From positions 1 through 54,015 of the forward strand of contig CALWDY010000021.1 of NCBI GenBank assembly GCA_944376825.1: a stretch of 54,015 nt of DNA, read 5' to 3'. This document shows, in pieces, positions 1 through 54,015 of the stretch. Origin of the DNA: an uncultured Clostridia bacterium (GTDB lineage: Bacteria; Bacillota; Clostridia; Christensenellales; UBA1242). The notes under the pieces are model-generated. The model was given only the letters and a program-made list of their open reading frames with translations, was not told the DNA's origin and ran no database searches. A program made the translations under genes and the position numbers. How positions within the stretch are numbered: the stretch's first letter is position 1; every line of letters begins with the position of its first letter.

Positions 1-59
1 ATGTATAAAAAATAAAAGGAGAAGAGATGAGAAAAAAGAGCAAACTTTTTTTAAGCATG
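1..59 (+). repeat. 59-bp exact terminal direct repeat (copy 1)
   Basis: 1..59 is identical to 53957..54015 (ATGTATAAAA...TTAAGCATG); includes RBS AAGGAG and the first 11 codons of ORF 27..1541. Confidence 0.97.
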
Positions 60-1541
60 GCAAGTATGGTGCTTACCGTTGCACTATTTTGCTTTGGCGT
101 GTATGCAGCACTAGGCGTAAGTTACACCATTTCAGGAAGTGTTGTGTATCAAGTTAAAGATGTGTTTGTGAACATACAAACATCACTGTACATGTCAAAA
201 GATACATCACTAACAGACCAAAGCACACTTGATGACAATGTTGAATTGTTTGAAACAAATCCAGATAATGCTCAAACAACAACAAACACCCAAAAGTTGG
301 CATACAGTGATGGACTAAAAACATATGACATAGGCACGGGTTTGATACTTGAACCAACAGAAGATGACTTAACAAGTGAAAACATACCAATAAACTATGG
401 TTCGTATGAAATACAAAACGAAGGCTTAGAAAACGAAAGTGCAAAAGGCTATGCATATTACATAGTTGTTTCTATAACAAACTACGGAACGGAAAGTGTT
501 AGTGTTACGCTTACAAATAACATAGACCCACAAGCAACAAACAGTTTAACAAAACTAAGCGGAAACACAACCATTGCTGGGAGAACAGCAGACAAAACCT
601 ATACAACCAAACACATAGTAATAGGCATGGCACTAAACGACGCAACAAAAAGCGTTAGTGATGTAAACTTTAATGTGCCAATTGTTGTTTCAAAAACATT
701 AATAGAAGAGTCTTCAATTTACGAAAGAGTAAACGCAAATAATGAACCAGATGCCAACGGAGATTATCTGCTCTTTGGTTACTATCCACAAACATTAAAA
801 GAGGCTGGCGTTGCAATAACAGGTACAACACCAAACGAAAACGGTTATTATACTGGCAGTGATGGCGAACTGTATGCTTTGGCAGAAGATGATAACTATT
901 ACAAAGTTGAAAAACTTCGTTGGCGCATACTTGATGACAACTATGGAGATGGCACAGCACTTATTGTGTGCGATACAATAATTGACAAGGTAATTTATCA
1001 ACCAAATTATACAGATCAAAATGGCTATAATTACGCAACAAACGAAAATGGGAATATAATAACAGATGTGGAAGATGCAGTGATAACAGATGCACAAAAC
1101 AGGGTTTATGCCAACAACTATAAACACAGCAACCTTCGTGCGTGGTTAAATGGTGAGTTTTATAACAAATTTACAGATGATGAAAAAGATGCAATTGTTT
1201 TAACCACAGTGGACAACAGCACAACATCGGGTGCTCCAAGTGAGTTTGTTTGTGAAAACACCATCGATTATGTTTATGCACTAACCATAAATGATGTAAA
1301 CAACGCAGCCTATGGCTTTGGAAATGAAGTTGACCCTGCAAAAAACTTTAAAGTAAGTGAGTATGCAAATGCAAAAGGTGTATATAGAGACTCCTTTAAT
1401 TATGGGTATGGGTGGCTTCGTTCGCCGAGTCCTTATTACTATGGATGCGATGTTTTTGCGGTGGGAGAAAGTTCGGTTTTTTATAACGAAGTGGCTGGAG
1501 ATGGCAATGGTGCGCTTCCCGCTTTGCAAATAGAGTTATAA
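27..1541 (+). CDS. Secreted/surface protein with C-terminal DUF6273-like (CLec-fold-like) domain; putative DGR target
   Basis: RBS AAGGAG; signal peptide ending FGVYAA; motifs LFGYYPQ, LRWRILD, NNYKHSNLRAWLN, WLRSP, GALPALQI. Confidence 0.75.
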   Translation: MRKKSKLFLSMASMVLTVALFCFGVYAALGVSYTISGSVVYQVKDVFVNIQTSLYMSKDTSLTDQSTLDDNVELFETNPDNAQTTTNTQKLAYSDGLKTYDIGTGLILEPTEDDLTSENIPINYGSYEIQNEGLENESAKGYAYYIVVSITNYGTESVSVTLTNNIDPQATNSLTKLSGNTTIAGRTADKTYTTKHIVIGMALNDATKSVSDVNFNVPIVVSKTLIEESSIYERVNANNEPDANGDYLLFGYYPQTLKEAGVAITGTTPNENGYYTGSDGELYALAEDDNYYKVEKLRWRILDDNYGDGTALIVCDTIIDKVIYQPNYTDQNGYNYATNENGNIITDVEDAVITDAQNRVYANNYKHSNLRAWLNGEFYNKFTDDEKDAIVLTTVDNSTTSGAPSEFVCENTIDYVYALTINDVNNAAYGFGNEVDPAKNFKVSEYANAKGVYRDSFNYGYGWLRSPSPYYYGCDVFAVGESSVFYNEVAGDGNGALPALQIEL

Positions 1542-1567
1542 ATTGAATTTAAAAATCTTTAAATTTG

Positions 1568-1616
1568 TTGCGAGTTAAGCAAAAGTGTTTTGCACTGCTT
1601 AACTTGCAATTTTTTT
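1568..1616 (+). terminator. Rho-independent terminator hairpin
   Basis: TTGCGAGTTAAGCA / TGCTTAACTTGCAA stem (one G-T pair) followed by a T run. Confidence 0.75.
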
Positions 1617-1646
1617 GATTAAAAACATAAATTTTAACAAAACAAA

Positions 1647-1727
1647 GGCACGAAAGTGCACACAGGGTGTGCAGTTTGCAAAGCAAACAAACCCGTTTGG
1701 AGGCTTCCAAACGGGTTTTTTCGTGCC
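1647..1727. repeat. Four-way-junction palindromic element, copy 1
   Basis: Outer stem GGCACGAAA/TTTCGTGCC encloses three perfect hairpins; second copy at 53591..53680. Confidence 0.9.
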
Positions 1728-1769
1728 GTATTTTAAAATGCAAGTTTGCCGTATTTTAAAATGCAAGTT
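1724..1769 (+). repeat. 23-bp perfect tandem duplication
   Basis: TGCCGTATTTTAAAATGCAAGTT at 1724..1746 and 1747..1769. Confidence 0.92.
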
Positions 1770-1774
1770 ATAGT

Positions 1775-3568
1775 TTACTCAACAGTAACGCTTTTTGCCA
1801 AGTTTCTTGGCTTATCGGGACTATATCCCAGTTTTAAGCATGTTTTCACGGCAAGCATTTGAAAAGGAACAATGCAAAGCATGCTACTTAATTCTTCGGG
1901 AGACTTATAAAAATGATAAACAAAATCTACATCTTGCAAGTTTTCTTCATCAACATTTAAATTTGTAACCAAAATAATATTTCCACCACGAGACTTAATT
2001 TCACTTGCACTTGCAAGGTTTTTGGACAAAAGTTCTTTTTTTGTTGCAATAACAAAAACAAGGCTTTTGCTGTCAACAAGCGAAAGTGTGCCATGTTTAA
2101 GTTCGCCAGATGGCAAACTTACGCAGTTTATGTAGGTTATTTCTTTAAGTTTAAGTCCTGCTTCTAGTGCCGAAACATAATCTTCTCCTCTGCCAATAAA
2201 AAACACCTTTTCACTTTTTAAAACAACATTAGATATGTCATCTATGTAATTTAAGTTATAAAAGAAATTTGTTTTGTTGAGTTTTTTTAATTTTTTTATT
2301 ATGTCAATATTTTTGAATTTTTTAGTGTTATACATATGTAAACTAAGCATATAAAAAACAAAAAGCATTGCATTATAGGCTTTTGTGGAAATAACAGCAA
2401 TTTCCATGCCAGCACAAAGAGGTAAAACTATGTTAGAACCTCTTGCAATTGATGAATGTGGAACATTAACAAGAGAAATTATTTTTGCCTTGTTTTGTTT
2501 TGCTAGTTTTAAGCAAAGTAGGGTGTCGGCAGTTTCGCCACTTTGGCTACAAAAAATACAAAGCGTATTTTTGTTGATTTTAGGATTGGAATAACTAAAT
2601 TCACTTGCAATGTGTGCAGAGCATTCCATACTAGTTTTTTCTTGAATAAATTTTGCTCCCATTAAACATGCGTGATATGCCGTACCGCATCCAATAAGTT
2701 TTATGCTATTTATGTCTTTTAAATATTCATGGTCTATTTTTTCAAAATAGTTGGTTGAGCTATACGAGGTAATTATATTATTTAAAACATGTGGTATCTC
2801 ATCAATTTCTTTTTCTGCAAAATAGTTGTAATTTCCCTTTGATGCATTTTTTTCAAAAACTGTTACCTTGGTTTTTTTTACTTTTATTTCTTTTAAATTA
2901 AAATCATAAAAAACAATTTCGTCTTTTTTTGCAACACAAATACTGTTTTCTGGCAACGCATAATAATCTTCAAATTTTTCGCCAAAGCAAACGGGGTCGC
3001 TTGACGCTAAAACTTCTTTAGCACTTTTTGCAACATAAAGGGGACTATTTTTTCTTGCCAAAAACAATGTGTTTTTTTCATTTTTGTTCATGATGCAAAA
3101 AGCAAAACTTCCTTTGAGAATTTTAATAGTTTTTTCTATTGCTTCTAAAACGCTACCCTTATGCAAACATAAAAGATTTGCCACAACTTCGGTGTCGGTT
3201 TCACCACACACTTTTATATTTTTTTCAAGAAGTTCTTTTTTTAAATCTAGGTAATTTTCAATTATTCCATTATGTACCACGCACCAAATTTTATCAAAAC
3301 TCAAATGCGGATGAGTGTTTAAAATGCTAACTTTTCCATGAGTTGCCCACCTGGTGTGTGCAATGCCACAATTTGATTTTATCTTTGTGTTTAGGTTTTT
3401 ATATAAATTTTTAATTTCTCCTAAACTTTTATGTACATAAAATTCATCATTGTCAAAAAGGCATATTCCAGAAGAATCATATCCACGGTATTCTAATTTT
3501 TTAAGATTGTTTATAATTGTTTCTTCTGTGTTTTCATTTTTGCCAATGTAACCAATTATGCCACACAT
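1775..3568 (-). CDS. glmS: Glutamine-fructose-6-phosphate aminotransferase
   Basis: N-terminal MCGIIG, EYRGYDS, HTRWATHG, SQSGETAD, C-terminal DKPRNLAKSVTVE. Confidence 0.97.
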   Translation of the reverse strand: MCGIIGYIGKNENTEETIINNLKKLEYRGYDSSGICLFDNDEFYVHKSLGEIKNLYKNLNTKIKSNCGIAHTRWATHGKVSILNTHPHLSFDKIWCVVHNGIIENYLDLKKELLEKNIKVCGETDTEVVANLLCLHKGSVLEAIEKTIKILKGSFAFCIMNKNEKNTLFLARKNSPLYVAKSAKEVLASSDPVCFGEKFEDYYALPENSICVAKKDEIVFYDFNLKEIKVKKTKVTVFEKNASKGNYNYFAEKEIDEIPHVLNNIITSYSSTNYFEKIDHEYLKDINSIKLIGCGTAYHACLMGAKFIQEKTSMECSAHIASEFSYSNPKINKNTLCIFCSQSGETADTLLCLKLAKQNKAKIISLVNVPHSSIARGSNIVLPLCAGMEIAVISTKAYNAMLFVFYMLSLHMYNTKKFKNIDIIKKLKKLNKTNFFYNLNYIDDISNVVLKSEKVFFIGRGEDYVSALEAGLKLKEITYINCVSLPSGELKHGTLSLVDSKSLVFVIATKKELLSKNLASASEIKSRGGNIILVTNLNVDEENLQDVDFVYHFYKSPEELSSMLCIVPFQMLAVKTCLKLGYSPDKPRNLAKSVTVE

Positions 3569-3746
3569 ATTTACTCCTTAAATGTAAAATAGGCTATAAC
3601 CTTTAATTACGATATTGCATGCTTTTTGTCGTAACATATAATAATATGAAAGTTGGCTAAATTAAGACACAAAACATTTTGTTATAATTTTAGTTGATGC
3701 TTGAAATATAATAAAAATATTGATACACTATAAAAAAGGAGCAAAA

Positions 3747-4235
3747 ATGAAAAAGGGTTTAAAAAATTCAGTTCAAAAAGATTATGTAAATAAAATTGTG
3801 GCAGAATTTATAAAAGCAATAAAAGAGCGATATTTCAATTTAATGTTAAACAAAAACTACATAAAAAATGAGAAACAAATGTCCGAGCAAGATATATTAA
3901 AATTTAAAAAATTTGAAAGCCAGTTAGATGGTTTTGGCAGTTTTTTAGAGGAAAGTTTTAGTTGGCAGATAAAAACGAAAAACAATTTGCATTATAGTTC
4001 GGATTATAATTATGAAGGGGAAGAAAGAGAATTTGGTTTTTTGATTGAAAATGGTGCAATAGATTATTTTGGCAAAGAGATTTCACAACTTCTTGGAGAA
4101 AATTTTTTTATAGAAATATATGCAAACAAAGAAAACGCCGTTTTAAATATAACAAAAATAAAAGATGGAAAAATTGTAACCAAATCCCAAAAAATTTGCA
4201 ACAATCTTTTAGTTGAGGAAAATAAGGAAATGTAA
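3747..4235 (+). CDS. Hypothetical protein
   Basis: ORF with AAGGAG RBS before ATG 3747; followed by a terminator. Confidence 0.7.
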   Translation: MKKGLKNSVQKDYVNKIVAEFIKAIKERYFNLMLNKNYIKNEKQMSEQDILKFKKFESQLDGFGSFLEESFSWQIKTKNNLHYSSDYNYEGEEREFGFLIENGAIDYFGKEISQLLGENFFIEIYANKENAVLNITKIKDGKIVTKSQKICNNLLVEENKEM

Positions 4236-42874: not shown

Positions 42875-45800
42875 ATGAAAAAAATTGCCATTTACATATT
42901 GCTAATGTTTTGTGCATTTTCAGTTTCTGTGCTTAGTGCATGCAATCAAGATGATTCACGCATAAGTTTTAATGTGGATTATATTGAAATGAACATTGGA
43001 GATGAACTTGATGTTTATTCAAAATTAAATGTAAAAGGAGTGGCAATTCAAGATGTAACATTAAAATCTTTGGATAGTTCTGTTATATCTTTAATAGACG
43101 GCAAAGCGACTGCTGTTGGACAAGGTACAACCTTTGTACAAGCATCTTATGACCTTAAAATTGCAAACCTAGAAATTAAAGTAAATGGTGAGGCAATAGA
43201 ATGCGAAGCGCCTATGGGCCTTATGTATGACACGCAAAATGGTTTCGTAACATGGAATCATGTTTTAGTTAAAATTGGCAATGAAATACAACAAGTTAAT
43301 TCCTATACCGTTGAAATAAAATCTCAAAACACAGTGAAAGAAGAAATAGTAATTGGTGATAATAAATATCAACTTAAAGATAGTGGCGTTTATGAAATTA
43401 GAGTAAAATGCAATTCTTTTACATCAAATGGAACAACATTGTATCAAGGCTCAGAATATAGCCAAAGTTTAGTTTTAACAAAACTAGAAAAACCATATAA
43501 TTTAAAATACAACGACGAAACAAAAACGCTTTCATGGGAAGCAAGTGATGATATAGCAACTTTTGTTGTAAACATAAATGGAGTTTTGTCACAGCCAACA
43601 ACAAAAAAAGAAATGGTTGTTGATTTAACCACTGTAAATATATCAAAACAAGAAACATTTGAAGTTTCAGTAATAAGTCAAACATCTAACAAAGATGGAA
43701 ACGATATTGTTGCATCAAGCGAAAGTGATAAAAAAGTTTGGACAAGACTATATGCTCCACAATTAAATATTGCAAACGGAGTTATCACTTGGGACAACAC
43801 TCAACAGGGTGACTTTCATTATGAAATAATAAGAACGGATATAAACAATGTTGTTTCAAAAGAAGTTGTTAGTGGAGGTGTTTATTCTCTTGATGGTATC
43901 TCAGCAGGAACTTATAACACCATACAACTTAAAGCAGTTAGTGACAGTGAAAATTATTTATCAAGCGAAAATTTAAGTGTTTTGTCGGATGTGATTAAAC
44001 TTGAAAAAGCAACACTATCCTTTAACCCAATAAATAGAACATTTGTTGTTGAAAACTATGAGGGTAAAAATATTGAACTTGAAATAACATATAAAAACAG
44101 CATTGAAAAAATATCTCTTCAAAACGGCACATATCTTTTTGACAAAACGGGCGTAGGTGCATATTCAGTAAAAGCTTATGTATATGCACAAGATAGCAAA
44201 GAAATAAATGCCGATGCTTCAAACACCATTAATCTTTTGAAACTTTCACAAATTGACTCTTCTTCTATAAATCAAAGCGTAAATGAAAACAAGTATTTTG
44301 TAACTTTTGGCGAAGTTGAAAACGCAGACACCTATTCACTTTCATATTTTAAAGATGGATTGGAAAACACACTTGTAAAACAGGCAGATGGTTCTTATGG
44401 TGATGTTGACACTATTTTTAATAATATTGGAACATATCAAATAACCATAACTGCATCTAGTTCAAAAATGACAGCCGTTGACACTTTTATTTTGCCAAGT
44501 AAAACAACTATAAGTGTGGTAAGACAAGAAAATGTTTCGCTTTCATTAAACGAAGAAAACGGACCAAAATCAATAAGTTGGAACACTATTTCAACGGCAA
44601 ATGGATATTCGTATTATATACTTAAAAACGGAGAGTTGTTTGAAGAAAACACAATTTCATCTTCTTTGATATCTGTAGAAAACTTTGAGTTTGGAAAATA
44701 TGAATTTTTTGTAAAGGCAGTAGGCTCGTTTAATAGTGGAGTTTTGTATTTAGATAGTTTAAATTATGCAAAAGTGGATTTTGAAATAGAATTATTGCTA
44801 GATACTCCAACTGTAAATTTTGATGTTGAAACAAAAATTTTAACAATTACAAAAGTAAATTATGCAAACAATTATGAAATAACAATAAATTTAAAAACTT
44901 TAAGTTTTGATAATTCACAAGACATAATAACAATAGATTTAACTCAAAAACTACAACAGCCAGGTGATTATGTTGTTGAAGTAAAAGCAGTCAATGCCGA
45001 CAATGATCTTATTTTTGACTCAAACACAAACTCAATTACAATTACAAAACTCAGTTCACCACAACAATTCAATTTGTCTATGGATGGTGTAATAACAATT
45101 TTAGATTATCCAAACGGACAAATGCTTGATGAAAATAGGGCAACACTTCTTATAAACGATGAAATTACCGAAACATTGGATGATGGTTTAAATTTTGTGT
45201 TAAAAGCAAAATTTAATGCAACAAAACAAAAGGTAAACAATCACTATTATTTAGATAGTGAATGGTGTCAATTTAATATACAAAGATTAATTGCACCAAC
45301 TGCTCCTGTTTTGAATGAAACTGTTATATCATGGCAACAAACAACACAAAAAAACTTTGTGTATTTGCTAACAATTACACAAGGTGAAACAGTGAAACAA
45401 ATACAATTAAACGAAAATCAAATAGATGTGTTTGATGAAAGAATTAGCCCAATAAACACAAAACAAGATTTTTCTGTTAAATTATGCTATTTGTATGTTG
45501 GAGCAAATATAAATTTGCAAGATAAAATCGATATATATTTTACATCACAATATAGCGAAGAGACAACTATTCATAAAATTGAAAGTGATGCTGTTTTAAG
45601 CGTTGTTGAAGAAGATGAAAAGGTTTTGGCAAATTGGACACAAAGTTCAATTAGTGATGTGAGTTATGAACTTTTATTAAATGATGAAATTATTTATAGC
45701 GGAAATGAAACATCAAAAGATATAACTGAATATGTTGTAGATGCGGGGAAATACACATTAAAATTAAAAATTTCAAAACAAGGATTTTTAACAAGTGAAT

Positions 45801-48800
45801 ATGTTGAGGTGTATGTTGAAAGACTGGCAAGTGCTACAAGCATAAAAATAGATGAAGATGAAAATATCATTGTTGAAACTAATTATAACACAGAAGATTT
45901 GCCAGATTCAGTAGCCCAATTAGATCATATAACAATATCAAAAGACCAAGATCAAAATATAACAAACCTTTCAAGTTATTTTGGAAACTTTGAAATAAGT
46001 GTGGGGCTTGTTGCAAAAAAATACACAGAGGGGAAATATTATTTCCTATCAAGTGCAATAAGTACATTTGAATTTTCAAGAATTCAAACCCTAACAGATC
46101 CAGCAATTAATAACAATATAATATCATGGGATGATATTGCACAAACATCAAATTATAAACTTAAATTTTCAAATGGAGAACAAGACTTGTATTACTTGTG
46201 TAGCGGAGTAAATTATATAAGCGCACAAGATGAAAATATAAAACAAATTATAGACACTTTGAATTCTGGCACTCTAACCGTTAGCGTGTCGGCAAGAGTG
46301 GGTGAAATTAGTGCATTAATTGGACAAGAAAATTTGTTGTCTTCATATTACTCTAACACAGTTCAAATTATAAAATTAAACCCAGTTTCTAATATTATTT
46401 TACAATCCGAAGAAAAAAATCAACAAGAGATAAAGATATCATGGGATTATGATTTCCAAGGAGTTAGTGTTGGTCAATTTGTTATAGAAATTTACAAAAA
46501 TGATGAATATTTGGAAACAATATATGCATTTGGAACATCTAAACATGTAATGTCTGCGGGCATGACATACGAAGGTACATATTATGTTAAAATTTATGCA
46601 GAAGGAACAAGCAACTGCATAAATAGTGATACAGTTGCTTCTGCAACTTATAAAAGACTTGCAAAACCTCAAAATCTTACAATCACTCAAGATGCACTTT
46701 TATCTTTTACAGGCGCTGCAGGGGCTGTTAAATATGGCGTTTCATATTATGCGAATGACTTGGTAAAGGGCGAACTTGAAACTTTATCTACCAGCATAAA
46801 TTTAAAAGAATATTTATTTGCAAGTGCGTTTAGTGGGCAAATAACAATAAATGTATATTCTATTGGAGGAAATGGGCAGGACGAAGGCAAAACATTTTCA
46901 AGTCAGCAAAGTGACAATTATGTTGTTACAAAACCAGTTGAGGCAAACATAACCCTTTCAACAAATAAACTTGTTGCCGGTCAAACAAAAATTGATGAAG
47001 TTGATGACAAAAGCAAGTATGTTATAACCATAAGCACAGATAATAGAATAGTTAAAGAATTAGAACTAAACTATGGTGAAGAATACATTTTTGAAGACTG
47101 GTACTATAAAGATACAAATGAAAAAGTTCCTACTAATGTTGAAAAAGTATATTCTATTAAAGTTGAAAGAAAACTAGAAGAAGAAAATTGCATAAAGTCA
47201 GATTCAACATTAAAAATTGTTACAAAATTGGCAGAAGTTAATAATGTGGGATTTATAAGAAAAACAGATAGTGCAGATAGTACAATATATCTTCGCGGAG
47301 ATGTGGTTGCAAATGCTTCAAAATATGTTTTAAATTTTTTGGGCACAGATTTTCAAACAAATGAATTTAATGTTTCAGGTCAATACGCCGAACTGGCTCT
47401 TTTAGAAAACATATATTCACAAATTCCACAAAACTTTACAATGACAGTTTATGCGCAAGGACTTATAGGCGGAAGAGTGGATTATATTGACAGTTCAAAA
47501 GCTTCGGTGTCGGGCAAAAAATTAAGTGCCGTAACAAACTTTAAAACAGTAAATGGTGTTCTTTGTTGGGATAAAGTGGATGAGGCGTATGATTATGCAA
47601 TAGATGTAAACAACACCGAGATTTTAACGGGATATGTTTTAAATTCAAAACACACATTAAGTGAAAATTTAAATGGCAAACAAGGTGAATTGGTTTTAAA
47701 TATAAAAGCGGTTGGAAATGTAAAAACATCACTGGTTAAGCAAGATATTGTTTTAGACTCTTTGTTTATAACAAATGAAGATGGAACAAGAAAAGATTAC
47801 AGCTGTAAAAAACTAGCAATACCACAAAACTTGAAAGTTGTTATGGGCTATATTGCTTTTACAAAAGTAGAGGGGGCAGATGGTTATCAGGTTGTGTATG
47901 GAACAAACAACTTCAACCTTGATGAACTATACAGTGAACAAACCGATTATTCAATTTTCTATGCACAAGAAATGTATAATATGTTTAAAGAAAATCAAAA
48001 ATATTCTATTTCTGTTATGGCAACATCAACAGAAGAAGATGTTATTTATTCGGACAAAACACAAGATTTAAGCATAAAAATCTTATCAAATAATTGCGCA
48101 GGAACATTGAATATTGTTTTAAAACAAACATCAACAAATCCTGTTAAATATGACTATACTATATCTCAACTAATATGGACGGCAGATTCAAACGCAGTAA
48201 ACGGATATAATGTAAACTTTAATGGTGAAATATTCAATACAAAAAACACTGAATTTGTTTTAGATGGAGATGGAAACCTAGAAGCAGGAAAACATCAAAT
48301 AAAACTTTCTGTGGCAGGTTCTAGTGAAATTGATGCTGATGGCAGTTATCTTTTAAATTCTAAATATAGTGAAACATTATATTTTACAAAACTTTCAAGT
48401 CCAAATCTAAAAGTAGAAAATGGTGAACTTGTTTGGGACAAAATTGATGGGGCAACAGGATATTTGTTATATCTTGGCGATGAACTTCAAAATAGTGGTT
48501 TGCCAATAGAAACAAACACCTATTATCTAGATTTGTCGAATACTTCTAATACAACATATTCTTCGTATAAGGTTAGAGCAATTTCAACATCTTCTCAGTA
48601 TATTGCAAGTTCGGTGGGAACATATAAAGATGCAGAAGGAAACAACTTGGAAGTTGTAAAACTACATTCACCAGATGCGTTCATGATAAAAGAAGGGGCA
48701 TTTAGATGGGAATTAAATGATATTTGGTCTTTATTGCCACTTGTAACAAAAGGAATAATAGAAAATCCCGTTACTGCAACAACCCAAACTTTGGCAACAA

Positions 48801-51800
48801 CAAAAATCAATATGAAATTTGCAAGCAAAACAAGCACCGCCGAATTTAGTTATGAAGATTATGCATTAAAATATTGTTTTGTAACGGATAAATTAAAACA
48901 AGACATTGCAAATAATATTTTAATACCAGCCGAGCAAAAAGAAATGATTTTGGCGCTTTTGGAAACCTATCAGTATAATGGCTGGCCTACACTTAATAAT
49001 GGATACTTAGAAATGGGCGCTGATTTGCCTGCTGGTGCATATAATTTAACATTAAGACAAAAGGGTGATAGTGTAAAATATTTAACATCTAATTATGGTA
49101 GCAATATAGAAGTTTATGTTCCATATGCTCCTCAAATTTCAATTGTATACTCAAACAATGCCTATGTTCTTTCATGGAACTCAATCAACATTCCTGCATC
49201 TTACAATATGCAAACTCCAACTTATGCAATTTTTGCAGACCAAAATGTTGAAGAAGAAGGAAAAATTGTTTCAAAAAGAGTTGAAATTGGCAGAACAACA
49301 TGCACAAGTTTCAACATTACCAATTTGGTTGAAAGTGGCACAATAAATTCTTCATTTACAGCGATATATGTTTATGTTGCTGGAAATGATGACAAAGTGT
49401 TAAATGGAAAAATCTCAAACAAAATAACATTAACCATTTTAGACCCAACAACAGCAAGAGTGAGAGATGGTGTAATTTATTGGAATGCACAAGAAAGTGC
49501 AAGTGCTTATCAAGTAACATACACTGAAAACAATGGCAACGTTGTGGGTGAAACAAAAACACTTTCATTAAAAGATGCAACTTGGGATTGTGCAGAACTT
49601 CAAAGTTACAACAAAATAGAAGAGTACTCGATAAAAATTCAAGCAATTGGGTTAAAAGTTGCAACAACAACTCATGCAATAATTTCGGGACCAAACAGCA
49701 GTGTTGGAAAGGTGTCAAAACTTCCAACGCCAATTAGCACAGTTGAAGATGGAAGAATTAGATGGTTAAGTGAAGAAAACAGTTCTTCATATAAAGTAAT
49801 TGTTAATAAAGATGACAATTTGTTAAATACTGTATCAATAATAAATCAACCAGACTTAGATAATTATATTTGGTTTGAATCAACCTTTACAGAGGAAAAC
49901 CTATTATACAAATTCCAAGCAGTGGGAAGTCTTGATATAGACTTGTCAACAGGAGAAAAAGCATTTGTAAACTCTAATAAAGGAAGCGATATTTATGGAA
50001 CAACAATAAGCAAAGTTTCAAATGTTGTTGCAAGAAAAGGTGTTTTATATTGGGATATTGCAAAAAATAATAATATTAACATAAGTTATTATAAACTTAC
50101 ATTTAATCAAGTGGATAATGATGGCAACCCTATAAATGAAGACTTTGTGATTATAAACAATAACTTCACAAATGCAGATGGAACATGCTCTTATAATTGT
50201 GCTGACCTTGCAAGTGGAAGATATAGAGTTACAATTCAAGCCTTCTTCAAGTCTAGTGATAATCTTGGAACATATATTTATAATGGAGAAACGGCATACT
50301 ATTTGATGAGTATCAAGTCGGATAGTTATGAATTCCAAAAATATAGTGATGTTCAAGGCGAAGATGAAAGTGGTGTCGTTTACAATATTGTACTAAAAGA
50401 TGGTGAGTTTACTTGGAAATATGTTGGAAATTTAGAAGAAGAAAACTATCAATATGAGTTGAAATTTAAAATTAATGAAGATGTAACAAGAGAACTTGTT
50501 GTAATAACAGAAGAAAACAGTTACTTCTCATATGTAACAAACAAACTTATAAATGAAAATCCTTTTGAACTTCAAATAAGAGTTATTCCAAAAGACGGTG
50601 TAGAAGGTTTTGTAAACTCAAACTATGTTACTTTTGTAAACCCAAATAATAAAAATCTGCCAAACATCTATCAATTAAATGGTATTAGCGCAGACGATAT
50701 TGTTCTTAGAGATTTAAGAGAAGAAGATATAGAAAATATACAAGATGTTCCAAGCAGTGATTTACATATAATTTGGAACAAATACTCCGTTTCAACGGGT
50801 GATACTAATATAGATTTGCAAGTTAAATATAAGGTTAATTTCTGGACAAGTGAAGATGAAACAGTAAAATCTATAATTGTTGATACAATGTATATAAATA
50901 CTCTTGAATTCCAATCTACAATAAGCGATGAGTATACTCTTTACTATACAATTCAAGTTTTGCCACTTGGAAATCAAAGTTATATACCTTCTTGCATTTC
51001 AGATGTTAGAGAAATTCAAAAACCACAATCGGTTCAAAGTGTTGGATTTAACAGCGAAGAAAAATATTTTTACTGGTCAACAGAAGGCACATCCAACGAC
51101 CATTCATATAAAATTAAAGATGAAATAATTGAGACTAACGATCTTGGAGAAATTGTATATGTTGATGGCGAGCCAAATGTGCTTAGAACATACATTTACA
51201 CAACACAAAACAACCTTACAAATAGATACACGCCAACAGAACAAGGAATGCATAAAGTTTCGGTTGCGGTTGTTGTAAAAAATAGCGACAATGATGGAAG
51301 TTTAACATCTGATTACACATATTATTACGATGAAGTTTTAGAGCCAGAAAATAAAGACAAAGGAACAGCTGTTTTGGTTGACTTGTTTAAAATTACCCAA
51401 GAAGGCTCAAACGGAACGGTGGAAAAACCATATTTAATAGAAACGAAAGAACAGTTTAACAACATTAAATATAGACTACAAAAAGATGAATACTTAAATA
51501 GTTACACTTTAATGGAAAATGGAGTGGAGCAAACAGTAACATTAAGTGAAGAAAACAAACAATTTAACTTTAAGCAAATTGCTTCAATCTATAATGTCTC
51601 TCCATTGGGTCAAGGAACAAACTTTGAATTTGTTGGCAATTATGATGGAAACAAAAAAACATTAAGTTGGGACTATGACTTAACAAATATAACTGCATAT
51701 CAATCAATACAATATGTTGCATTGTTCTCGCAAATAGAAAGTGGCGCAAAAGTGCAAAATTTAAAAGTAGTTGCAAACCTAACGGGACAACTTAAAGTTG

Positions 51801-52684
51801 GTGCAACAATATCACTGCTTTGCTACAAAAACTTGGGAACAATTCAAAATGTGGTCTTGGGTTCACAAGGGCAAAGCATAGATTTAACATCAAACAAAGA
51901 CATGTTTGTTTATGGAATTGCATATCAAAACTTAGGAACAATTCAAAATGTGGTAAACTACTATGATGTTTCACTTAAAAACAGCACAGACGTTCTTGGA
52001 ATAAAAGCAAGTTTTGCTTCTATTGCAGGGGAAAACGAAGGTCTTGTTCTTAAATGTGGACACTATGGAAACATTACTCTTCAAACAACAATTTCAACAA
52101 GCGGTGGAATTGTTGGAACAAACAGAGCAAACGGAACAGTTGAAGCATGCGTGCTTAAAAATCAAACAACAACACTTAGCATAAACAAACAAGCACAACA
52201 AGGTTCAACGCAAGGTGCAGTAAACTTCTATTTTGGAGGAATTATTGGTCAAAACGACGGAACAGTAAATTATTGTTACACCTACACAAATTCAGTAATA
52301 TATAGAAGTGCTCCTGTTGGCTCTATTAATAAAGTTTATATTGCAGGTCTTGTTGGACTTTCAAATAATGGCAACATAAAAGGTTCTTATGTTTATAATG
52401 TGGTAAATGCTTCAAGTGCCCAATCAATACAAATAGGCAATGTATATTTGTTTGCATATATTACATGGTCGTCAGGTGGCGTTGATACAAGATGTTTCTA
52501 TAATGAAGGGCAATCTCATGCTCCAATTGGAGGAGTTGGTGTTGATAAATTTAGCATAACATCATATTCAAAAGTTCCTCTTGGAGATAGGTTAAATGGA
52601 ACAGAAAGCACATACTACTTAAACAACGAAAACGAGTTCCCAAAATTTGAATGGGAAAACGAAGTTGGTAGTTGGGTAGAGTGA
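42875..52684 (+). CDS. Giant (3269 aa) surface lipoprotein: Ig-like domain, many FN3-like repeats, C-terminal GLUG-like region
   Basis: Lipobox LSAC; recurring KL..P.nL...l.W units; GTVEKPYLI, FVGNYDGN, GGIVG.N and GGIIGQN motifs. Confidence 0.85.
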   Translation: MKKIAIYILLMFCAFSVSVLSACNQDDSRISFNVDYIEMNIGDELDVYSKLNVKGVAIQDVTLKSLDSSVISLIDGKATAVGQGTTFVQASYDLKIANLEIKVNGEAIECEAPMGLMYDTQNGFVTWNHVLVKIGNEIQQVNSYTVEIKSQNTVKEEIVIGDNKYQLKDSGVYEIRVKCNSFTSNGTTLYQGSEYSQSLVLTKLEKPYNLKYNDETKTLSWEASDDIATFVVNINGVLSQPTTKKEMVVDLTTVNISKQETFEVSVISQTSNKDGNDIVASSESDKKVWTRLYAPQLNIANGVITWDNTQQGDFHYEIIRTDINNVVSKEVVSGGVYSLDGISAGTYNTIQLKAVSDSENYLSSENLSVLSDVIKLEKATLSFNPINRTFVVENYEGKNIELEITYKNSIEKISLQNGTYLFDKTGVGAYSVKAYVYAQDSKEINADASNTINLLKLSQIDSSSINQSVNENKYFVTFGEVENADTYSLSYFKDGLENTLVKQADGSYGDVDTIFNNIGTYQITITASSSKMTAVDTFILPSKTTISVVRQENVSLSLNEENGPKSISWNTISTANGYSYYILKNGELFEENTISSSLISVENFEFGKYEFFVKAVGSFNSGVLYLDSLNYAKVDFEIELLLDTPTVNFDVETKILTITKVNYANNYEITINLKTLSFDNSQDIITIDLTQKLQQPGDYVVEVKAVNADNDLIFDSNTNSITITKLSSPQQFNLSMDGVITILDYPNGQMLDENRATLLINDEITETLDDGLNFVLKAKFNATKQKVNNHYYLDSEWCQFNIQRLIAPTAPVLNETVISWQQTTQKNFVYLLTITQGETVKQIQLNENQIDVFDERISPINTKQDFSVKLCYLYVGANINLQDKIDIYFTSQYSEETTIHKIESDAVLSVVEEDEKVLANWTQSSISDVSYELLLNDEIIYSGNETSKDITEYVVDAGKYTLKLKISKQGFLTSEYVEVYVERLASATSIKIDEDENIIVETNYNTEDLPDSVAQLDHITISKDQDQNITNLSSYFGNFEISVGLVAKKYTEGKYYFLSSAISTFEFSRIQTLTDPAINNNIISWDDIAQTSNYKLKFSNGEQDLYYLCSGVNYISAQDENIKQIIDTLNSGTLTVSVSARVGEISALIGQENLLSSYYSNTVQIIKLNPVSNIILQSEEKNQQEIKISWDYDFQGVSVGQFVIEIYKNDEYLETIYAFGTSKHVMSAGMTYEGTYYVKIYAEGTSNCINSDTVASATYKRLAKPQNLTITQDALLSFTGAAGAVKYGVSYYANDLVKGELETLSTSINLKEYLFASAFSGQITINVYSIGGNGQDEGKTFSSQQSDNYVVTKPVEANITLSTNKLVAGQTKIDEVDDKSKYVITISTDNRIVKELELNYGEEYIFEDWYYKDTNEKVPTNVEKVYSIKVERKLEEENCIKSDSTLKIVTKLAEVNNVGFIRKTDSADSTIYLRGDVVANASKYVLNFLGTDFQTNEFNVSGQYAELALLENIYSQIPQNFTMTVYAQGLIGGRVDYIDSSKASVSGKKLSAVTNFKTVNGVLCWDKVDEAYDYAIDVNNTEILTGYVLNSKHTLSENLNGKQGELVLNIKAVGNVKTSLVKQDIVLDSLFITNEDGTRKDYSCKKLAIPQNLKVVMGYIAFTKVEGADGYQVVYGTNNFNLDELYSEQTDYSIFYAQEMYNMFKENQKYSISVMATSTEEDVIYSDKTQDLSIKILSNNCAGTLNIVLKQTSTNPVKYDYTISQLIWTADSNAVNGYNVNFNGEIFNTKNTEFVLDGDGNLEAGKHQIKLSVAGSSEIDADGSYLLNSKYSETLYFTKLSSPNLKVENGELVWDKIDGATGYLLYLGDELQNSGLPIETNTYYLDLSNTSNTTYSSYKVRAISTSSQYIASSVGTYKDAEGNNLEVVKLHSPDAFMIKEGAFRWELNDIWSLLPLVTKGIIENPVTATTQTLATTKINMKFASKTSTAEFSYEDYALKYCFVTDKLKQDIANNILIPAEQKEMILALLETYQYNGWPTLNNGYLEMGADLPAGAYNLTLRQKGDSVKYLTSNYGSNIEVYVPYAPQISIVYSNNAYVLSWNSINIPASYNMQTPTYAIFADQNVEEEGKIVSKRVEIGRTTCTSFNITNLVESGTINSSFTAIYVYVAGNDDKVLNGKISNKITLTILDPTTARVRDGVIYWNAQESASAYQVTYTENNGNVVGETKTLSLKDATWDCAELQSYNKIEEYSIKIQAIGLKVATTTHAIISGPNSSVGKVSKLPTPISTVEDGRIRWLSEENSSSYKVIVNKDDNLLNTVSIINQPDLDNYIWFESTFTEENLLYKFQAVGSLDIDLSTGEKAFVNSNKGSDIYGTTISKVSNVVARKGVLYWDIAKNNNINISYYKLTFNQVDNDGNPINEDFVIINNNFTNADGTCSYNCADLASGRYRVTIQAFFKSSDNLGTYIYNGETAYYLMSIKSDSYEFQKYSDVQGEDESGVVYNIVLKDGEFTWKYVGNLEEENYQYELKFKINEDVTRELVVITEENSYFSYVTNKLINENPFELQIRVIPKDGVEGFVNSNYVTFVNPNNKNLPNIYQLNGISADDIVLRDLREEDIENIQDVPSSDLHIIWNKYSVSTGDTNIDLQVKYKVNFWTSEDETVKSIIVDTMYINTLEFQSTISDEYTLYYTIQVLPLGNQSYIPSCISDVREIQKPQSVQSVGFNSEEKYFYWSTEGTSNDHSYKIKDEIIETNDLGEIVYVDGEPNVLRTYIYTTQNNLTNRYTPTEQGMHKVSVAVVVKNSDNDGSLTSDYTYYYDEVLEPENKDKGTAVLVDLFKITQEGSNGTVEKPYLIETKEQFNNIKYRLQKDEYLNSYTLMENGVEQTVTLSEENKQFNFKQIASIYNVSPLGQGTNFEFVGNYDGNKKTLSWDYDLTNITAYQSIQYVALFSQIESGAKVQNLKVVANLTGQLKVGATISLLCYKNLGTIQNVVLGSQGQSIDLTSNKDMFVYGIAYQNLGTIQNVVNYYDVSLKNSTDVLGIKASFASIAGENEGLVLKCGHYGNITLQTTISTSGGIVGTNRANGTVEACVLKNQTTTLSINKQAQQGSTQGAVNFYFGGIIGQNDGTVNYCYTYTNSVIYRSAPVGSINKVYIAGLVGLSNNGNIKGSYVYNVVNASSAQSIQIGNVYLFAYITWSSGGVDTRCFYNEGQSHAPIGGVGVDKFSITSYSKVPLGDRLNGTESTYYLNNENEFPKFEWENEVGSWVE

Positions 52685-52750: not shown

Positions 52751-52850
52751 AGATTAACAAAAAACTTTGCAAATAAAATATTTAGATTTTTAAAATCATG
52801 TAAAAACTTTTAAAGTCATATAAAACAAATTGTTTGCATTATATATTTGT

Positions 52851-53540
52851 ATGAGATATCCCTTTTTAACTATAAAAAATTTTAAAAAAGTTTTACTTAT
52901 AATTGGCATTATGATTGGCTTGTGTACTGCACTTATGTCAGGTGCGATTGTGTATTCACAATCAAAAACATACACATATAGTGTTGTAATTGATGCTGGG
53001 CATGGTGGAATAGACGGTGGAAGTGAGGGCTTTAATGGTACAAAAGAAAGCGAAATCAATTTGGTATACGCAAAAACTTTGGAACAATACTTTAAAGATT
53101 TTGGTTTTAAAACAACTATGACAAGAATAAATGAAAATGGGTTATATAGCCCTTTTGCATCAAACAAGAAAAAAGATGACATGCAAAAACGAAAAGAGTT
53201 GATTGAAAGCGTAAAGCCAGACATGGTGATTAGTATACATATGAATAGTTTTGCTCTTTCTTCAAGTCGTGGAGCACAAGTTTTTTATAATGAAGATAAT
53301 GAAAATTCAAAATTGCTAGCCGACCAAATACAAAAACAATTTGTGCAAAATTTGGTTGAACCAAGACAAAATTCTCAAAAGGGCGATTATTACATTTTAA
53401 ATTGCACTTCTATTCCTAGTGTAATTGTTGAATGTGGATTTATATCCAATCAAGAAGAAGAATTGTTATTAAACACAAAAGAATATCGTGAAAAGTTGTG
53501 TTACAGTATTTTGTGTGGAGTTGTGAGTTATTTAATGTAA
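52851..53540 (+). CDS. N-acetylmuramoyl-L-alanine amidase (Amidase_3, CwlD-like)
   Basis: N-terminal TM, VIDAGHGGIDGG, ESEINL, SIHMN, RGAQVFY, VECGFISN. Confidence 0.9.
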   Translation: MRYPFLTIKNFKKVLLIIGIMIGLCTALMSGAIVYSQSKTYTYSVVIDAGHGGIDGGSEGFNGTKESEINLVYAKTLEQYFKDFGFKTTMTRINENGLYSPFASNKKKDDMQKRKELIESVKPDMVISIHMNSFALSSSRGAQVFYNEDNENSKLLADQIQKQFVQNLVEPRQNSQKGDYYILNCTSIPSVIVECGFISNQEEELLLNTKEYREKLCYSILCGVVSYLM

Positions 53541-53590: not shown

Positions 53591-53680
53591 AGGGCACGAA
53601 AGTGCAAACAATGTTTGCAGTTTGCACTATAAAGCAAACCAACCCGTTTGGCAATTGCCAAACGGGTTCTTTCGTGCCCT
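53591..53680. repeat. Four-way-junction palindromic element, copy 2
   Basis: AGGGCACGAAAG/CTTTCGTGCCCT outer stem with three inner hairpins; compensatory changes relative to copy 1. Confidence 0.9.
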
Positions 53681-53877
53681 TTATACTCAACATAATTTTT
53701 TGTATGCATTTTGTTGTGCTCGGGCAAACACAATTTTTCTTTTACCAAACCCAACAACACAAACATTGAAATAATCCTAGCACAGCAAATACAAGCAATT
53801 TTAATCAATTATCCACAACAATAAAGCATTTAAAAACCTCCAAAAACAAAAAAAATTTAGCAAACATACAAAATTGC

Positions 53878-53909
53878 TTGACACGGGGGGGGGGGGGGTA
53901 TCCTATTAT
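53878..53909 (+). promoter_or_regulatory. Putative phase-variable promoter with G14 tract in the spacer
   Basis: TTGACA(53878..53883)-C-G14(53885..53898)-TATCCT, with TATTAT overlapping at 53904. Confidence 0.75.
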
Positions 53910-53956: not shown

Positions 53957-54015
53957 ATGTATAAAAAATAAAAGGAGAAGAGATGAGAAAAAAGAGCAAA
54001 CTTTTTTTAAGCATG
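53957..54015 (+). repeat. 59-bp exact terminal direct repeat (copy 2)
   Basis: Identical to 1..59. Confidence 0.97.
53983..54015 (+). CDS. Partial CDS (MRKKSKLFLSM...), paralogue of or same gene as 27..1541
   Basis: Same RBS and first 11 codons; runs off the window end. Confidence 0.8.
   Translation, partial: MRKKSKLFLSM

What the first reader, a model, noticed from the sequence alone, without database searches (positions are those of the whole stretch)
1647..1727. Unnamed ~85-bp four-way-junction element, present twice with compensatory base changes
Seen. Copy 1: GGCACGAAA G [TGCACAC agg GTGTGCA][GTTTGC aaa GCAAAC][AAACCCGTTTGGA ggct TCCAAACGGGTTT] TTTCGTGCC. Copy 2 (53591..53680): AGGGCACGAAAG [TGCAAAC aat GTTTGCA][GTTTGC actataaa GCAAAC] C [AACCCGTTTGGC aatt GCCAAACGGGTT] CTTTCGTGCCCT. 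Loops differ freely while stems covary (C-G to A-T; A-T to C-G). All pairs are Watson-Crick, so either strand can fold. It is GC-rich in an AT-rich genome and has no tRNA hallmarks. Inference: selection acts on structure. It could be a REP/MITE-like ssDNA substrate, an attC-like recombination site, a retrohoming signal, or a novel ncRNA motif.
Basis: partly seen in the sequence, partly recalled or inferred. Interest (0 to 1): 0.8.

Follow-up and report, generated by a model that had tools for sequence, protein, structure and literature searches.

The report
Four-armed palindromic repeat at gene ends
An 85-90-base DNA segment that folds into a perfect four-armed junction belongs to an apparently undescribed repeat family in small-genome gut Clostridia, and it sits where related genomes have an ordinary transcription stop signal, so it most likely ends and protects transcripts and is probably not a new RNA gene.

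Summary
Both copies are where stated and fold as closed four-way junctions on either strand (z -8.7 to -11.3). A third copy lies on another contig. No Rfam family matches.

It is a real family. A covariance model built only from members in other genomes recovers all three copies here at 67-78 bits. In 36 distinct members, 93.7% of pair cells are paired and 33 of 35 pairs show double changes. Arm P2 (TGCAAAC-N3-GTTTGCA) stays constant while P1, P3 and P4 vary freely. G.T mismatches (41) are about as rare as A.C (24) and other mismatches (51), so the constraint acts on DNA or on both strands.

The family was found in 12 of 150 other genomes of the same bacterial family and essentially not outside it.

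All three copies here occupy the slot where the closest relatives carry a plain terminator. One member elsewhere is a clean ~100-nt indel. A second class pairs the 3' end of a tRNA or tmRNA gene with an inverted pseudo-copy, and direct repeats often flank it.

Best reading (0.5): a REP-like, duplicative nested palindrome that serves as a bidirectional terminator and 3'-end protector.

No link to Y1 transposases or reverse transcriptase was found. Earlier notes of this scan describe similar-looking junction palindromes in two other phyla.

The parts
1647..1727 (.). Copy 1 of the four-way-junction element. P1 is 1647-1655 with 1719-1727, P2 is 1657-1673, P3 is 1674-1688 and P4 is 1689-1718. It lies between convergent genes: the 504-aa surface protein gene (27-1541, +) and glmS (1775-3568, -).
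   Evidence: Sequence; folds; model hits of 98.3 bits (R1) and 66.9 bits (R2, built without this genome).
1689..1718 (.). P4 of copy 1: a 13-bp hairpin with an A-tract before it and T-rich sequence after it on both strands. It is the likely bidirectional intrinsic terminator and the first stable hairpin after the glmS stop codon, 45 nt away.
   Evidence: It is the only terminator-like site reported in 1300-2000, on the minus strand. The stretch between the glmS stop and the element has no stable fold (-5.4 kcal/mol). The three closest congeners have a plain terminator at this place.
53591..53680 (.). Copy 2. P1 is 53591-53602 with 53669-53680, P2 is 53603-53619, P3 is 53620-53639 and P4 is 53641-53668. 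It lies 50 nt after the stop of an Amidase_3 gene (52830-53540, +) and about 200 nt upstream of a poly-G promoter-like region.
   Evidence: Model hits of 113 bits (R1) and 77.7 bits (R2). There is no stable fold between the amidase stop and the element (-4.8 kcal/mol, z -0.85).
53681..53750 (+). A spacer of about 66-70 nt that travels with the element. It is nearly identical downstream of copy 2 and copy 3 and is followed by a stretch of about 60 nt that is not alike. Element plus spacer make a unit of about 160 nt.
   Evidence: Pairwise and three-way alignments. The unit is absent from the orthologous rubrerythrin-promoter interval of congener G001.
1724..1769 (.). A perfect 23-nt tandem duplication (2.0 copies) that begins in the last 4 nt of copy 1 and reaches almost to the glmS stop codon. 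It is unexplained and may be a footprint of the event that put the element there.
   Evidence: Tandem Repeats Finder: 100% matches, score 92.
1567..1617 (+). The surface-protein gene's own intrinsic terminator: a 14-bp stem followed by T7. This is context. It shows that copy 1 is not needed to stop that gene.
   Evidence: Fold of 1542-1646 and sequence.

Best explanation
The element belongs to a family of 80-135-nt nested palindromes. In the genomes searched the family is confined to one family of small (about 1 Mb), AT-rich, uncultured gut Clostridia.

One long helix (P1 stacked on P4) carries two short hairpins (P2, P3) on one strand, which gives a perfect four-way junction. P2 is the constant signature, TGCAAAC-N3-GTTTGCA. 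The other arms drift but are kept strictly Watson-Crick.

The element is gained, lost and duplicated as a unit, and it settles at the 3' ends of transcription units. In this genome it occupies the place of the ordinary intrinsic terminator.

Inferred mechanism:
- P4, with its flanking A- and T-tracts, stops RNA polymerase coming from either side.
- P1 then pairs the released 3' end back into the junction, shielding it from 3'-to-5' exonucleases. This is the dual role reported for REP elements of E. coli.
- Copies 2 and 3 thereby also insulate a poly-G (phase-variable-looking) promoter from upstream read-through.

Shown: the structure, the family, the covariation, the Watson-Crick-only constraint, the position in terminator slots, and the indel behaviour.

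Inferred: termination, RNA protection, insulation, and any protein that reads P2.
For: Structure and family:
- The folds have z -8.7 to -11.3.
- Model R2, built from 9 members of other genomes, scores the three copies here at 66.9-77.7 bits.
- On 9 sequences, 96% of cells are paired and 31 of 35 pairs have double changes. With the 3' partners slid by 1-3 columns, only 32-49% pair.
- On 36 distinct sequences, 93.7% of cells are paired and 33 of 35 pairs have double changes. Slid controls give 33-45%.

Symmetric constraint: the pair cells are 1044 Watson-Crick, 41 G.T, 24 A.C and 51 other.

Terminator slot:
- After glmS, 3 of 3 closest congeners have a plain hairpin plus T-run where copy 1 sits.
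- After the rubrerythrin gene, G001 and G003 have a plain A-tract/hairpin/T-tract where copy 3 sits. In G001 the same poly-G promoter follows.
- After clpB, 4 of 19 congeners have the junction 5-10 nt after the stop codon, and one of its arms is a canonical hairpin plus T7-8. By eye, at least 14 of the other 15 have plain hairpins and I saw no clear hairpin in G012.
- No other stable hairpin lies between the upstream stop codon and copies 1 (minus strand), 2 or 3.
- P4 is the only terminator-like site that the scan reports in each region.

Unit behaviour:
- One member lies between a T-box leader and the pheS ribosome-binding site. It is missing, to within about 3 nt of the base of P1, in 2 of 2 alignable congeners.
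- At least three full copies in that genome share P1 and P2 but differ in P3 and P4, and a further match to the repeat lies on a fourth contig (not inspected).
- Tandem arrays have periods of 112, 141, 156 and 213 nt.

Neighbours: the 45 flanking ORFs scanned are varied housekeeping genes.

Analogy: REP325 acts as both terminator and mRNA stabiliser (abstract of bioRxiv 10.64898/2026.03.23.713779).
Against: - No transcript data exist, so termination and protection are untested here.
- Not every member looks like a terminator. In several, P4 is a pure A/T hairpin or lacks a T-run.
- One member lies inside the pheS 5' leader, where it cannot terminate efficiently.
- Two members sit just after a separate terminator.
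- Termination needs only one hairpin. This reading does not explain the invariant P2 sequence, the four-way shape, or the tRNA-linked class with its direct repeats.
- The copy number is tiny (3 here), unlike REPs.
- The alignments used for covariation were fitted to the model, which leans towards the structure.
Confidence: 0.5

Rival explanations
1. It is the folded single-strand attachment site of miniature, non-coding integrative elements. P1 plus P4 imitate the duplex target, P2 and P3 are the element's own arms, and the junction point is the crossover. A tyrosine recombinase acts on the folded strand, as with integron attC or the CTX phage attP. The terminator role is incidental.
For: - In the tRNA/tmRNA-linked class, the continuous strand of P4 plus P1 is the antisense of the last ~30 nt of an intact tRNA or tmRNA gene. 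The interrupted strand is an inverted pseudo-copy split by P2 and P3, in most cases in the T-loop, the usual crossover region of tRNA-targeting integrases (recalled knowledge).
- In 7 of 11 such loci a direct repeat of the last 16 nt of the tRNA (3 mismatches or fewer) lies downstream of the unit.
- Units at tmRNA and at tRNA-Ser of one genome share the spacer and P2, but their arms match their own target.
- Units occur in tandem, as in accretion.
- The Watson-Crick-only constraint fits a DNA substrate.
- The duplicated block of copies 2 and 3 begins exactly at the 5' end of the element.
Against: - No recombinase gene is linked. Among 45 flanking ORFs only one is an integrase, and it lies on the far side of two RNA genes.
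- The three copies in this genome are not tRNA-linked and have no flanking direct repeats.
- 4 of 11 tRNA-linked loci lack the repeat.
- In second units of arrays P1 cannot form.
- Units of 110-160 nt are very small for known integrase sites.
- No excised form has been seen.
Confidence: 0.2
2. It is a neutral by-product. Palindromes grow around terminator hairpins by template switching or fold-back synthesis, which automatically gives perfect Watson-Crick arms and apparent covariation. The elements have no function of their own.
For: - Pairs are strictly Watson-Crick, with mismatches in the proportions expected from fresh mutation.
- Arms incorporate the host terminator or the neighbouring tRNA 3' end.
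- A perfect 23-nt duplication abuts copy 1.
- Palindromes are known to seed inverted duplications centred on themselves (abstract of PMC3315005).
- Distribution is sporadic: 12 of 150 genomes.
Against: - The same P2 sequence and the same four-arm order recur across at least 9 genera. Independent local growth would not produce this.
- The element persists at the orthologous clpB site in four species while its sequence changes in a compensated way.
- It is a discrete indel at the pheS leader.
Confidence: 0.15
3. It is a structured non-coding RNA, or a cis-acting RNA motif in 3' UTRs, read on one strand by a specific protein through the P2 hairpin.
For: - Strong covariation.
- High G+C in an AT-rich genome.
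- P2 is invariant.
- 7 of 8 independent free-standing loci that have an upstream gene are co-oriented with it.
Against: - No Rfam match.
- No promoter-like site upstream on the plus strand.
- There are essentially no conserved unpaired nucleotides.
- G.T is not favoured over A.C.
- A terminator-like arm lies inside the fold, so the full junction would rarely be transcribed.
- tRNA-linked members are in the opposite orientation to their upstream gene.
- One free-standing member is antisense to both neighbours.
Confidence: 0.1

Closest known systems
REP / BIME extragenic palindromes of Enterobacteria and Pseudomonas (REPINs)
   Same: They are extragenic, G+C-rich palindromes at the 3' ends of transcription units and between convergent genes. 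They vary between strains. Reported roles are termination and mRNA 3'-end protection (abstract of bioRxiv 10.64898/2026.03.23.713779).
   Different: REPs are single imperfect hairpins of about 35 nt, present in hundreds of copies and tied to RAYT (Y1) transposases (recalled knowledge). Here there are four perfect arms, 1-4 copies per genome, and no co-occurrence with Y1 transposases: 2 of 12 against 1.8 expected.
Bacterial MITEs and structured repeats (Correia, ERIC, BOX, RUP, bcr1; names recalled)
   Same: These are short, non-coding units with terminal inverted repeats (here P1, 9-12 bp). They fold stably, are scattered between housekeeping genes, and show filled and empty orthologous sites.
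   Different: No target-site duplication was seen. The terminal repeat sequence differs between subfamilies while an internal hairpin is constant. Copies within one genome differ by compensated changes and are not near-identical. No parent IS was found.
Bidirectional intrinsic terminators (A-tract, hairpin, T-tract)
   Same: P4 of the copies here has this form and sits where relatives have such a terminator.
   Different: A terminator needs one hairpin. The closing stem P1 and the two extra hairpins, with the invariant P2, have no counterpart.
Folded single-strand recombination sites: integron attC and CTX phage attP (recalled)
   Same: Structure is conserved while sequence is free, and the constraint is on DNA. 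In the tRNA-linked class an inverted copy of the target lies next to a hybrid site, as expected if one arm of a folded site was exchanged.
   Different: No RYYYAAC/GTTRRRY cores, no extrahelical bases, no integron integrase or cassette array, and the target is a tRNA T-loop and not attI or dif.
Integrative elements and their gene-less derivatives (CIMEs) at tRNA/tmRNA 3' ends (recalled)
   Same: Direct repeats of the tRNA 3' end flank the unit in 7 of 11 loci. The unit brings a replacement 3' end with its own terminator. Units accrete in tandem.
   Different: Units are only 110-210 nt with no genes. They carry an inverted, interrupted copy of the target. The copies in this window are not at tRNA genes.

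Membership tests
Any Rfam 15 family | Covariance-model score at or above the family's gathering threshold | tested here: not met
   There are 0 matches in the whole window. In E-value mode, the best hit on 1500-1900 scores 20.4 bits against a threshold of 68. In 15 member loci only tRNA, tmRNA, T-box and L10 leader matched, and none lies on the element's own arms P1a-P2-P3; in the tRNA-linked loci the tRNA/tmRNA matches cover the 3' strand of P4 and P1.
tRNA / tRNA-like gene | Cloverleaf with D, anticodon and T arms recognised by ARAGORN | tested here: not met
   0 genes in the window.
REP/REPIN | Co-occurrence with a RAYT/Y1 (PF01797) transposase | tested here: not met
   In the same 150-genome sample, 22 genomes have a Y1 transposase and 12 have the element. 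The overlap is 2, against 1.8 expected. The IS200-like copy in this genome has unrelated flanking hairpins.
REP/REPIN | High copy number of short single hairpins | tested here: not met
   There are 3 copies in 1.05 Mb, and each has four arms.
REP/REPIN | Extragenic location at 3' ends or between convergent genes | tested here: met
MITE | Terminal inverted repeats | tested here: met
   P1 is 9-12 bp, perfect.
MITE | Target-site duplication | tested here: inconclusive
   No consistent duplication flanks three G378 copies. At the filled and empty pheS site a 3-nt GTT is possible, but the species are too diverged to tell.
MITE | Filled versus empty orthologous sites | tested here: met
   G378 is filled. 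G562 and G548 are empty at the T-box/pheS junction.
MITE | Parent IS with the same ends | not tested
   No systematic search for longer elements bounded by P1 was made. Flanking ORFs show no transposase.
Integron attC | R''/R' cores RYYYAAC...GTTRRRY at the base of the stem, and extrahelical bases | tested here: not met
   By inspection, P1 (GGCACGAAAG/CTTTCGTGCC) lacks these cores, and the stems are perfect with no bulged bases. The consensus is recalled, not taken from a tool.
Integron attC | Adjacent IntI gene and cassette array | tested here: not met
   Tyrosine recombinase matches in the genome lie on C24 (about 11 kb from copy 3), C27, C28, C32 and C33. None is adjacent to any copy.
Retron / DGR / group II intron accessory structure | A reverse transcriptase gene in the genome | tested here: not met
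   PF00078 gives 0 matches in a 97%-complete genome.
Intrinsic terminator | G+C-rich hairpin followed by a T-run | tested here: met
   P4 of copies 1 and 2 is flagged on the minus strand. On the plus strand it is followed by TTTTTTCG (copy 1) or TTCTTTCG (copy 2). Function was not tested.
Integrative element att site at tRNA/tmRNA | Direct repeat of the tRNA 3' end on the far side of the unit | tested here: inconclusive
   This is met in 7 of 11 tRNA-linked members of other genomes. It does not apply to the three copies in this genome, which are not tRNA-linked.

The most novel reading that the evidence does not exclude
The four-way junction is a self-contained, folded single-strand recombination substrate. 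P1 plus P4 reproduce the duplex target (in many members the T-arm and acceptor end of a tRNA or tmRNA gene). P2 and P3 are the arms of a tiny gene-less mobile element. The branch point is the crossover site. This would be a sequence-encoded mimic of a Holliday intermediate that lets units of 100-200 nt integrate at gene 3' ends and re-template their arms on each new target. It would be a new class of miniature integrative element and a third example, after attC and the CTX attP, of recombination through folded single strands.
Probability: 0.15. Interest if true: 0.85.

Novelty: new variant of a known kind. Interest (0 to 1): 0.5.

Why it matters
If the main reading holds, small-genome gut Clostridia have their own counterpart of REP elements. 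It is a portable four-armed palindrome that can replace a gene's terminator and insulate a phase-variable promoter. That is relevant for annotating transcription-unit ends in thousands of uncultured genomes. It is also a caution that strong covariation does not by itself indicate an RNA gene.

Three features are not explained by any described repeat family that I could find: strict Watson-Crick pairing, the invariant P2 hairpin, and the variants built on tRNA 3' ends with flanking direct repeats. Together they make a DNA-level mechanism directly testable.

Tried and rejected
- **Rfam.** Three searches (window at gathering threshold, 400 nt in E-value mode, 15 member loci) found nothing on the element.
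- **Reverse transcriptase (retron, DGR, retrohoming).** None in the genome.
- **Y1/HUH transposase link.** No co-occurrence. The local IS200 ends are unrelated.
- **Linked recombinase or transposase in flanks.** None among 45 ORFs, apart from one non-adjacent integrase.
- **Coding potential.** ORFs across the element are short, lie on both strands, and change with the compensatory substitutions. I did not pursue this.
- **Target-site duplications.** None convincing.
- **RNA evidence.** No RNA holder was listed for window 1200-4200.
- **Phage and plasmid collections.** No blastn match.
- **Public collections by pattern.**
  - The genome-specific P1-P2-P3 pattern gave 0 hits in genome contigs and in metagenome contigs.
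  - A looser P1-P2 pattern gave 8 hits. Three are in one MAG that carries the G378-type copies and 5 are scattered at about chance level.
  - A P2-P3 pattern in metagenomes gave 7 hits, none of them a junction.
- **P2 as an independent motif.** GCAAACNNNGTTTGC occurs in 118 of 401 family genomes, against about 39 for the reversed control by my reading of the table. Many hits are plain terminators or tRNA and rRNA spacers, so I do not count this as evidence for a binding protein.
- **Circularity of the contig.** The 59-bp terminal self-overlap is not proof, because the same 5' block occurs on at least five other contigs, some at contig ends.
- **Literature.**
  - One search timed out and one was malformed.
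  - 'miniature inverted-repeat' with 'four-way junction' returned 0 papers.
  - A search on extragenic palindromes, cruciforms and terminators listed nothing that describes such an element.
  - I read only the abstracts of two papers.
  - Supplementary files were not consulted.

Full report
**1. Observation**

Both copies read exactly as quoted. Each folds, on either strand, into a closed four-way junction. Energies are -48 to -57 kcal/mol against shuffled means of -21 to -23, giving z -8.65 to -11.26, and none of 200 shuffles folds as well.

The arms in copy 1 are:
- P1: 1647-1655 with 1719-1727
- P2: 1657-1673
- P3: 1674-1688
- P4: 1689-1718

The arms in copy 2 are:
- P1: 53591-53602 with 53669-53680
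- P2: 53603-53619
- P3: 53620-53639
- P4: 53641-53668

The window is contig C21 of a 1.05-Mb, 33-contig assembly with 27-33% G+C per contig. The elements have 44-51% G+C.

A third copy lies at C24:14149-14238. It is 95.7% identical to copy 2. No further copy was found with either covariance model.

**2. Not a known RNA**

- Rfam gives nothing at gathering thresholds in the window.
- In E-value mode around copy 1 it gives only noise.
- In 15 loci that hold members from other genomes, none of the matches covers the element's own arms P1a-P2-P3.
- ARAGORN finds no tRNA in the window.

**3. A real family with conserved structure**

A model built from the three copies (R1) found divergent four-way junctions in congeners G012, G017 and G005.

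A scan for the P2 hairpin in 401 genomes of the same bacterial family, followed by folding of the hits, produced more members. These include three copies in G378 with identical P1 and P2 but different, fully compensated P3 and P4.

I built a second model, R2, from nine members, none of them from this genome. R2 recovers the three copies here at 77.7, 72.7 and 66.9 bits, so they belong to the same family.

Covariation on the nine-sequence alignment:
- 96.0% of pair cells are standard pairs.
- 31 of 35 pairs show changes on both sides.
- None of 500 shuffles reaches these values.
- Sliding the partners by 1-3 columns gives 32-49% pairing.

Covariation on 37 matches, 36 distinct:
- 93.7% of cells are paired.
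- 33 of 35 pairs show double changes.
- Slid controls give 33-45%.

These alignments were fitted to the model, which favours the structure. The slid controls and the independent minimum-free-energy folds of each member agree with them.

P2 is nearly invariant, with 30-36 of 36 sequences identical at each of its inner six pairs. P1, P3 and P4 vary at every pair.

**4. Distribution**

- In the genus, 6 of 20 genomes carry the element: G000, G004, G005, G012, G017 and G019.
- In a 150-genome sample of the family, 12 genomes in 8 further genera have a hit at E <= 0.001. The search used strict filters and is therefore an underestimate.
- In 145 genomes of other families of the order there is one marginal hit, at 28 bits.
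- Pattern scans of public genome and metagenome collections, and blastn against phage and plasmid collections, added nothing.

**5. The constraint is symmetric**

Over all aligned pair cells there are 1044 Watson-Crick pairs, 41 G.T, 24 A.C and 51 other mismatches.

An RNA read from one strand would tolerate G.U far better than A.C. Here both are rare and of the same order, as expected if mismatches are simply recent mutations. So the pairing is kept at the DNA level, or on both strands.

Other points that argue against a stand-alone RNA:
- There are almost no conserved unpaired bases.
- No promoter-like site lies upstream of either copy on the plus strand.
- In the copies of this window P4 is itself terminator-like, and in the tRNA-linked members the tRNA's own terminator forms the tip of P4. 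A full-length junction transcript would therefore rarely be made.

**6. Where it sits**

Copy 1 lies between convergent genes. The 504-aa DUF6273 surface protein gene has its own terminator at 1567-1617. Nothing stable lies in the 45 nt between the glmS stop codon and the element. On the minus strand P4 is the only terminator-like site found in the region.

In the three closest congeners, glmS is followed by a plain hairpin plus T-run and by a different downstream gene.

Copy 2 follows an Amidase_3 gene by 50 nt with no other structure between them.

Copy 3 follows a rubrerythrin gene by 54 nt. In G001 the same rubrerythrin gene and the same poly-G promoter block are separated by a plain A8-hairpin-T7 terminator, and the ~234 nt that hold the element are absent. 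G003 also has a plain terminator after rubrerythrin.

At the clpB 3' end, four congeners carry the junction 5-10 nt after the stop codon, with one arm being a canonical hairpin plus T7-8. By eye, at least 14 of the other 15 congeners, this genome included, have ordinary hairpins; in G012 I saw no clear hairpin.

So in three independent orthologous comparisons the element occupies the terminator slot.

**7. It behaves as a unit**

- In G378 one copy lies between a T-box leader (Rfam hit) and the pheS ribosome-binding site. Two congeners have the same junction without the ~100 nt, with the boundary within about 3 nt of the base of P1.
- That genome has at least three full copies at unrelated loci, and a further match to the repeat lies on a fourth contig (not inspected).
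- Tandem arrays occur.
- Copies 2 and 3 here head a duplicated block that starts exactly at the 5' end of the element. The block includes a ~66-nt spacer.
- No consistent target-site duplication was seen.
- Flanking genes are ordinary housekeeping genes.
- There is no association with Y1 transposases: the overlap is 2 of 12 against 1.8 expected. There is no reverse transcriptase in the genome.

**8. A second class built on tRNA ends**

In 11 loci of other genomes the element abuts the last gene of a tRNA run, or tmRNA. The genes are Ser-GGA, Ser-CGA, Leu-TAG, Arg-TCT, Tyr, Thr-GGT, Lys-CTT and tmRNA.

In these loci:
- The continuous strand of P4 plus P1 is the antisense of the last ~30 nt of the intact gene.
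- The gene's terminator forms the tip of P4.
- The other strand is an inverted pseudo-copy of the tRNA end. It is interrupted by P2 and P3, in most cases within the T-loop and in G082 between the T-stem and the acceptor strand.
- In 7 of 11 loci a direct repeat of the last 16 nt of the tRNA lies beyond the unit. In 4 of 11 it does not.
- Units at tmRNA and at tRNA-Ser of one genome share P2 and a ~60-nt spacer, but their arms match their own target.

This is the signature of site-specific integration at tRNA genes. It also resembles what a folded single-strand site would leave behind. No recombinase is linked. The copies in this window are not of this class.

**9. Reading**

The best-supported account (confidence 0.5) is a REP-like, duplicative nested palindrome. 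It settles at transcription-unit ends and, in this genome, does the work of the intrinsic terminator in both directions. P1 is likely to tuck the released 3' end into the junction.

This matches the dual terminator and stabiliser role reported for an E. coli REP (abstract only). It would also insulate the poly-G promoter downstream of copies 2 and 3.

This account does not explain the invariant P2, the need for four arms, or the tRNA-linked class.

The rivals are:
- a folded single-strand recombination site (0.2);
- neutral palindrome growth by template switching (0.15; see the abstract of PMC3315005);
- a one-strand RNA motif (0.1).

No transcript data could be obtained.

**10. Novelty**

I found no description of such an element. 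Rfam gave nothing. Two literature searches returned either nothing or only general work on REPs and cruciforms.

Two earlier notes of this scan describe Watson-Crick-only multi-stem palindromes at operon ends in a Zixibacteria genome and an Anaerolineales genome. I did not check them. They suggest that the general phenomenon may be wider than this family.

I class the element as a new variant of a known kind (extragenic palindromic repeats), with a minority chance of being something more unusual.

Noticed in passing
window 53878-53909; also C24 (L001 about 3900-3935, minus strand) and G001 (L161): A promoter-like TTGACA is followed by a G-run and then TATCCT/TATTAT. The run is 14 G here, 12 G in the C24 paralogue and 10 G in congener G001. 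It lies upstream of a multi-paralogue surface-protein family with a shared signal peptide and N-domain and with DUF6273 or BspA-LRR C-termini. It looks like slipped-strand phase variation through promoter spacing.
   Followed up: partly
window 1-59 and 53957-54015: The contig has an exact 59-bp terminal self-overlap. The same 5' block of the surface-protein family also occurs on C24, C9 (contig end), C25 (contig end), C2 and C11. The overlap may therefore reflect a repeat and not a circular molecule. If the ends do join, copies 2 and 1 flank the 504-aa gene as direct repeats.
   Followed up: partly
window 1724-1769: A perfect 23-nt tandem duplication starts in the last 4 nt of copy 1 and ends 5 nt before the glmS stop codon. 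Its origin is unexplained.
   Followed up: partly
window 42875-52684: A 3269-aa ORF with a signal peptide and long repetitive, Ig-like-looking segments. It is probably a giant surface adhesin.
   Followed up: no
G000 contigs C27:19216-19233, C28:436-453, C12:25872-25889, C4:44006-44023, C31:53992-54009: 18-nt matches to the 3' end of tmRNA are scattered in the genome. Two of them lie next to tyrosine recombinase genes (C27:20052-20564 and C28:1-156). They are probably att remnants of islands that integrated at tmRNA.
   Followed up: no
G406 (for example L039), G020 (L056), G022 (L068): Other hairpin-rich repeats share the GCAAAC-N3-GTTTGC hairpin. There are 23 copies in G406 that the models do not match. 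G020 has 213-nt units after tRNA-Lys with five or more perfect hairpins. G022 has 56-nt mini-units after tRNA-Ser, each ending in a copy of the tRNA 3' end.
   Followed up: partly
L033 (G299) about 1480-1600: A run of four short hairpins, each followed by GTGAAG or GTGAAT. One of them is the GCAAAC hairpin. It could be a multi-site protein-binding RNA.
   Followed up: no
G000 C4:400-855: An intact IS200-like Y1 transposase gene (151 aa) flanked by G+C-rich hairpins. A second, truncated copy lies at the start of C25.
   Followed up: partly
G000 C31:3177-5462: Between clpB and the DUF4011-like gene, which are adjacent in congeners, this genome has about 2.3 kb holding a membrane protein, two small HTH-like ORFs and a 195-aa ORF. 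This is a possible small island.
   Followed up: no
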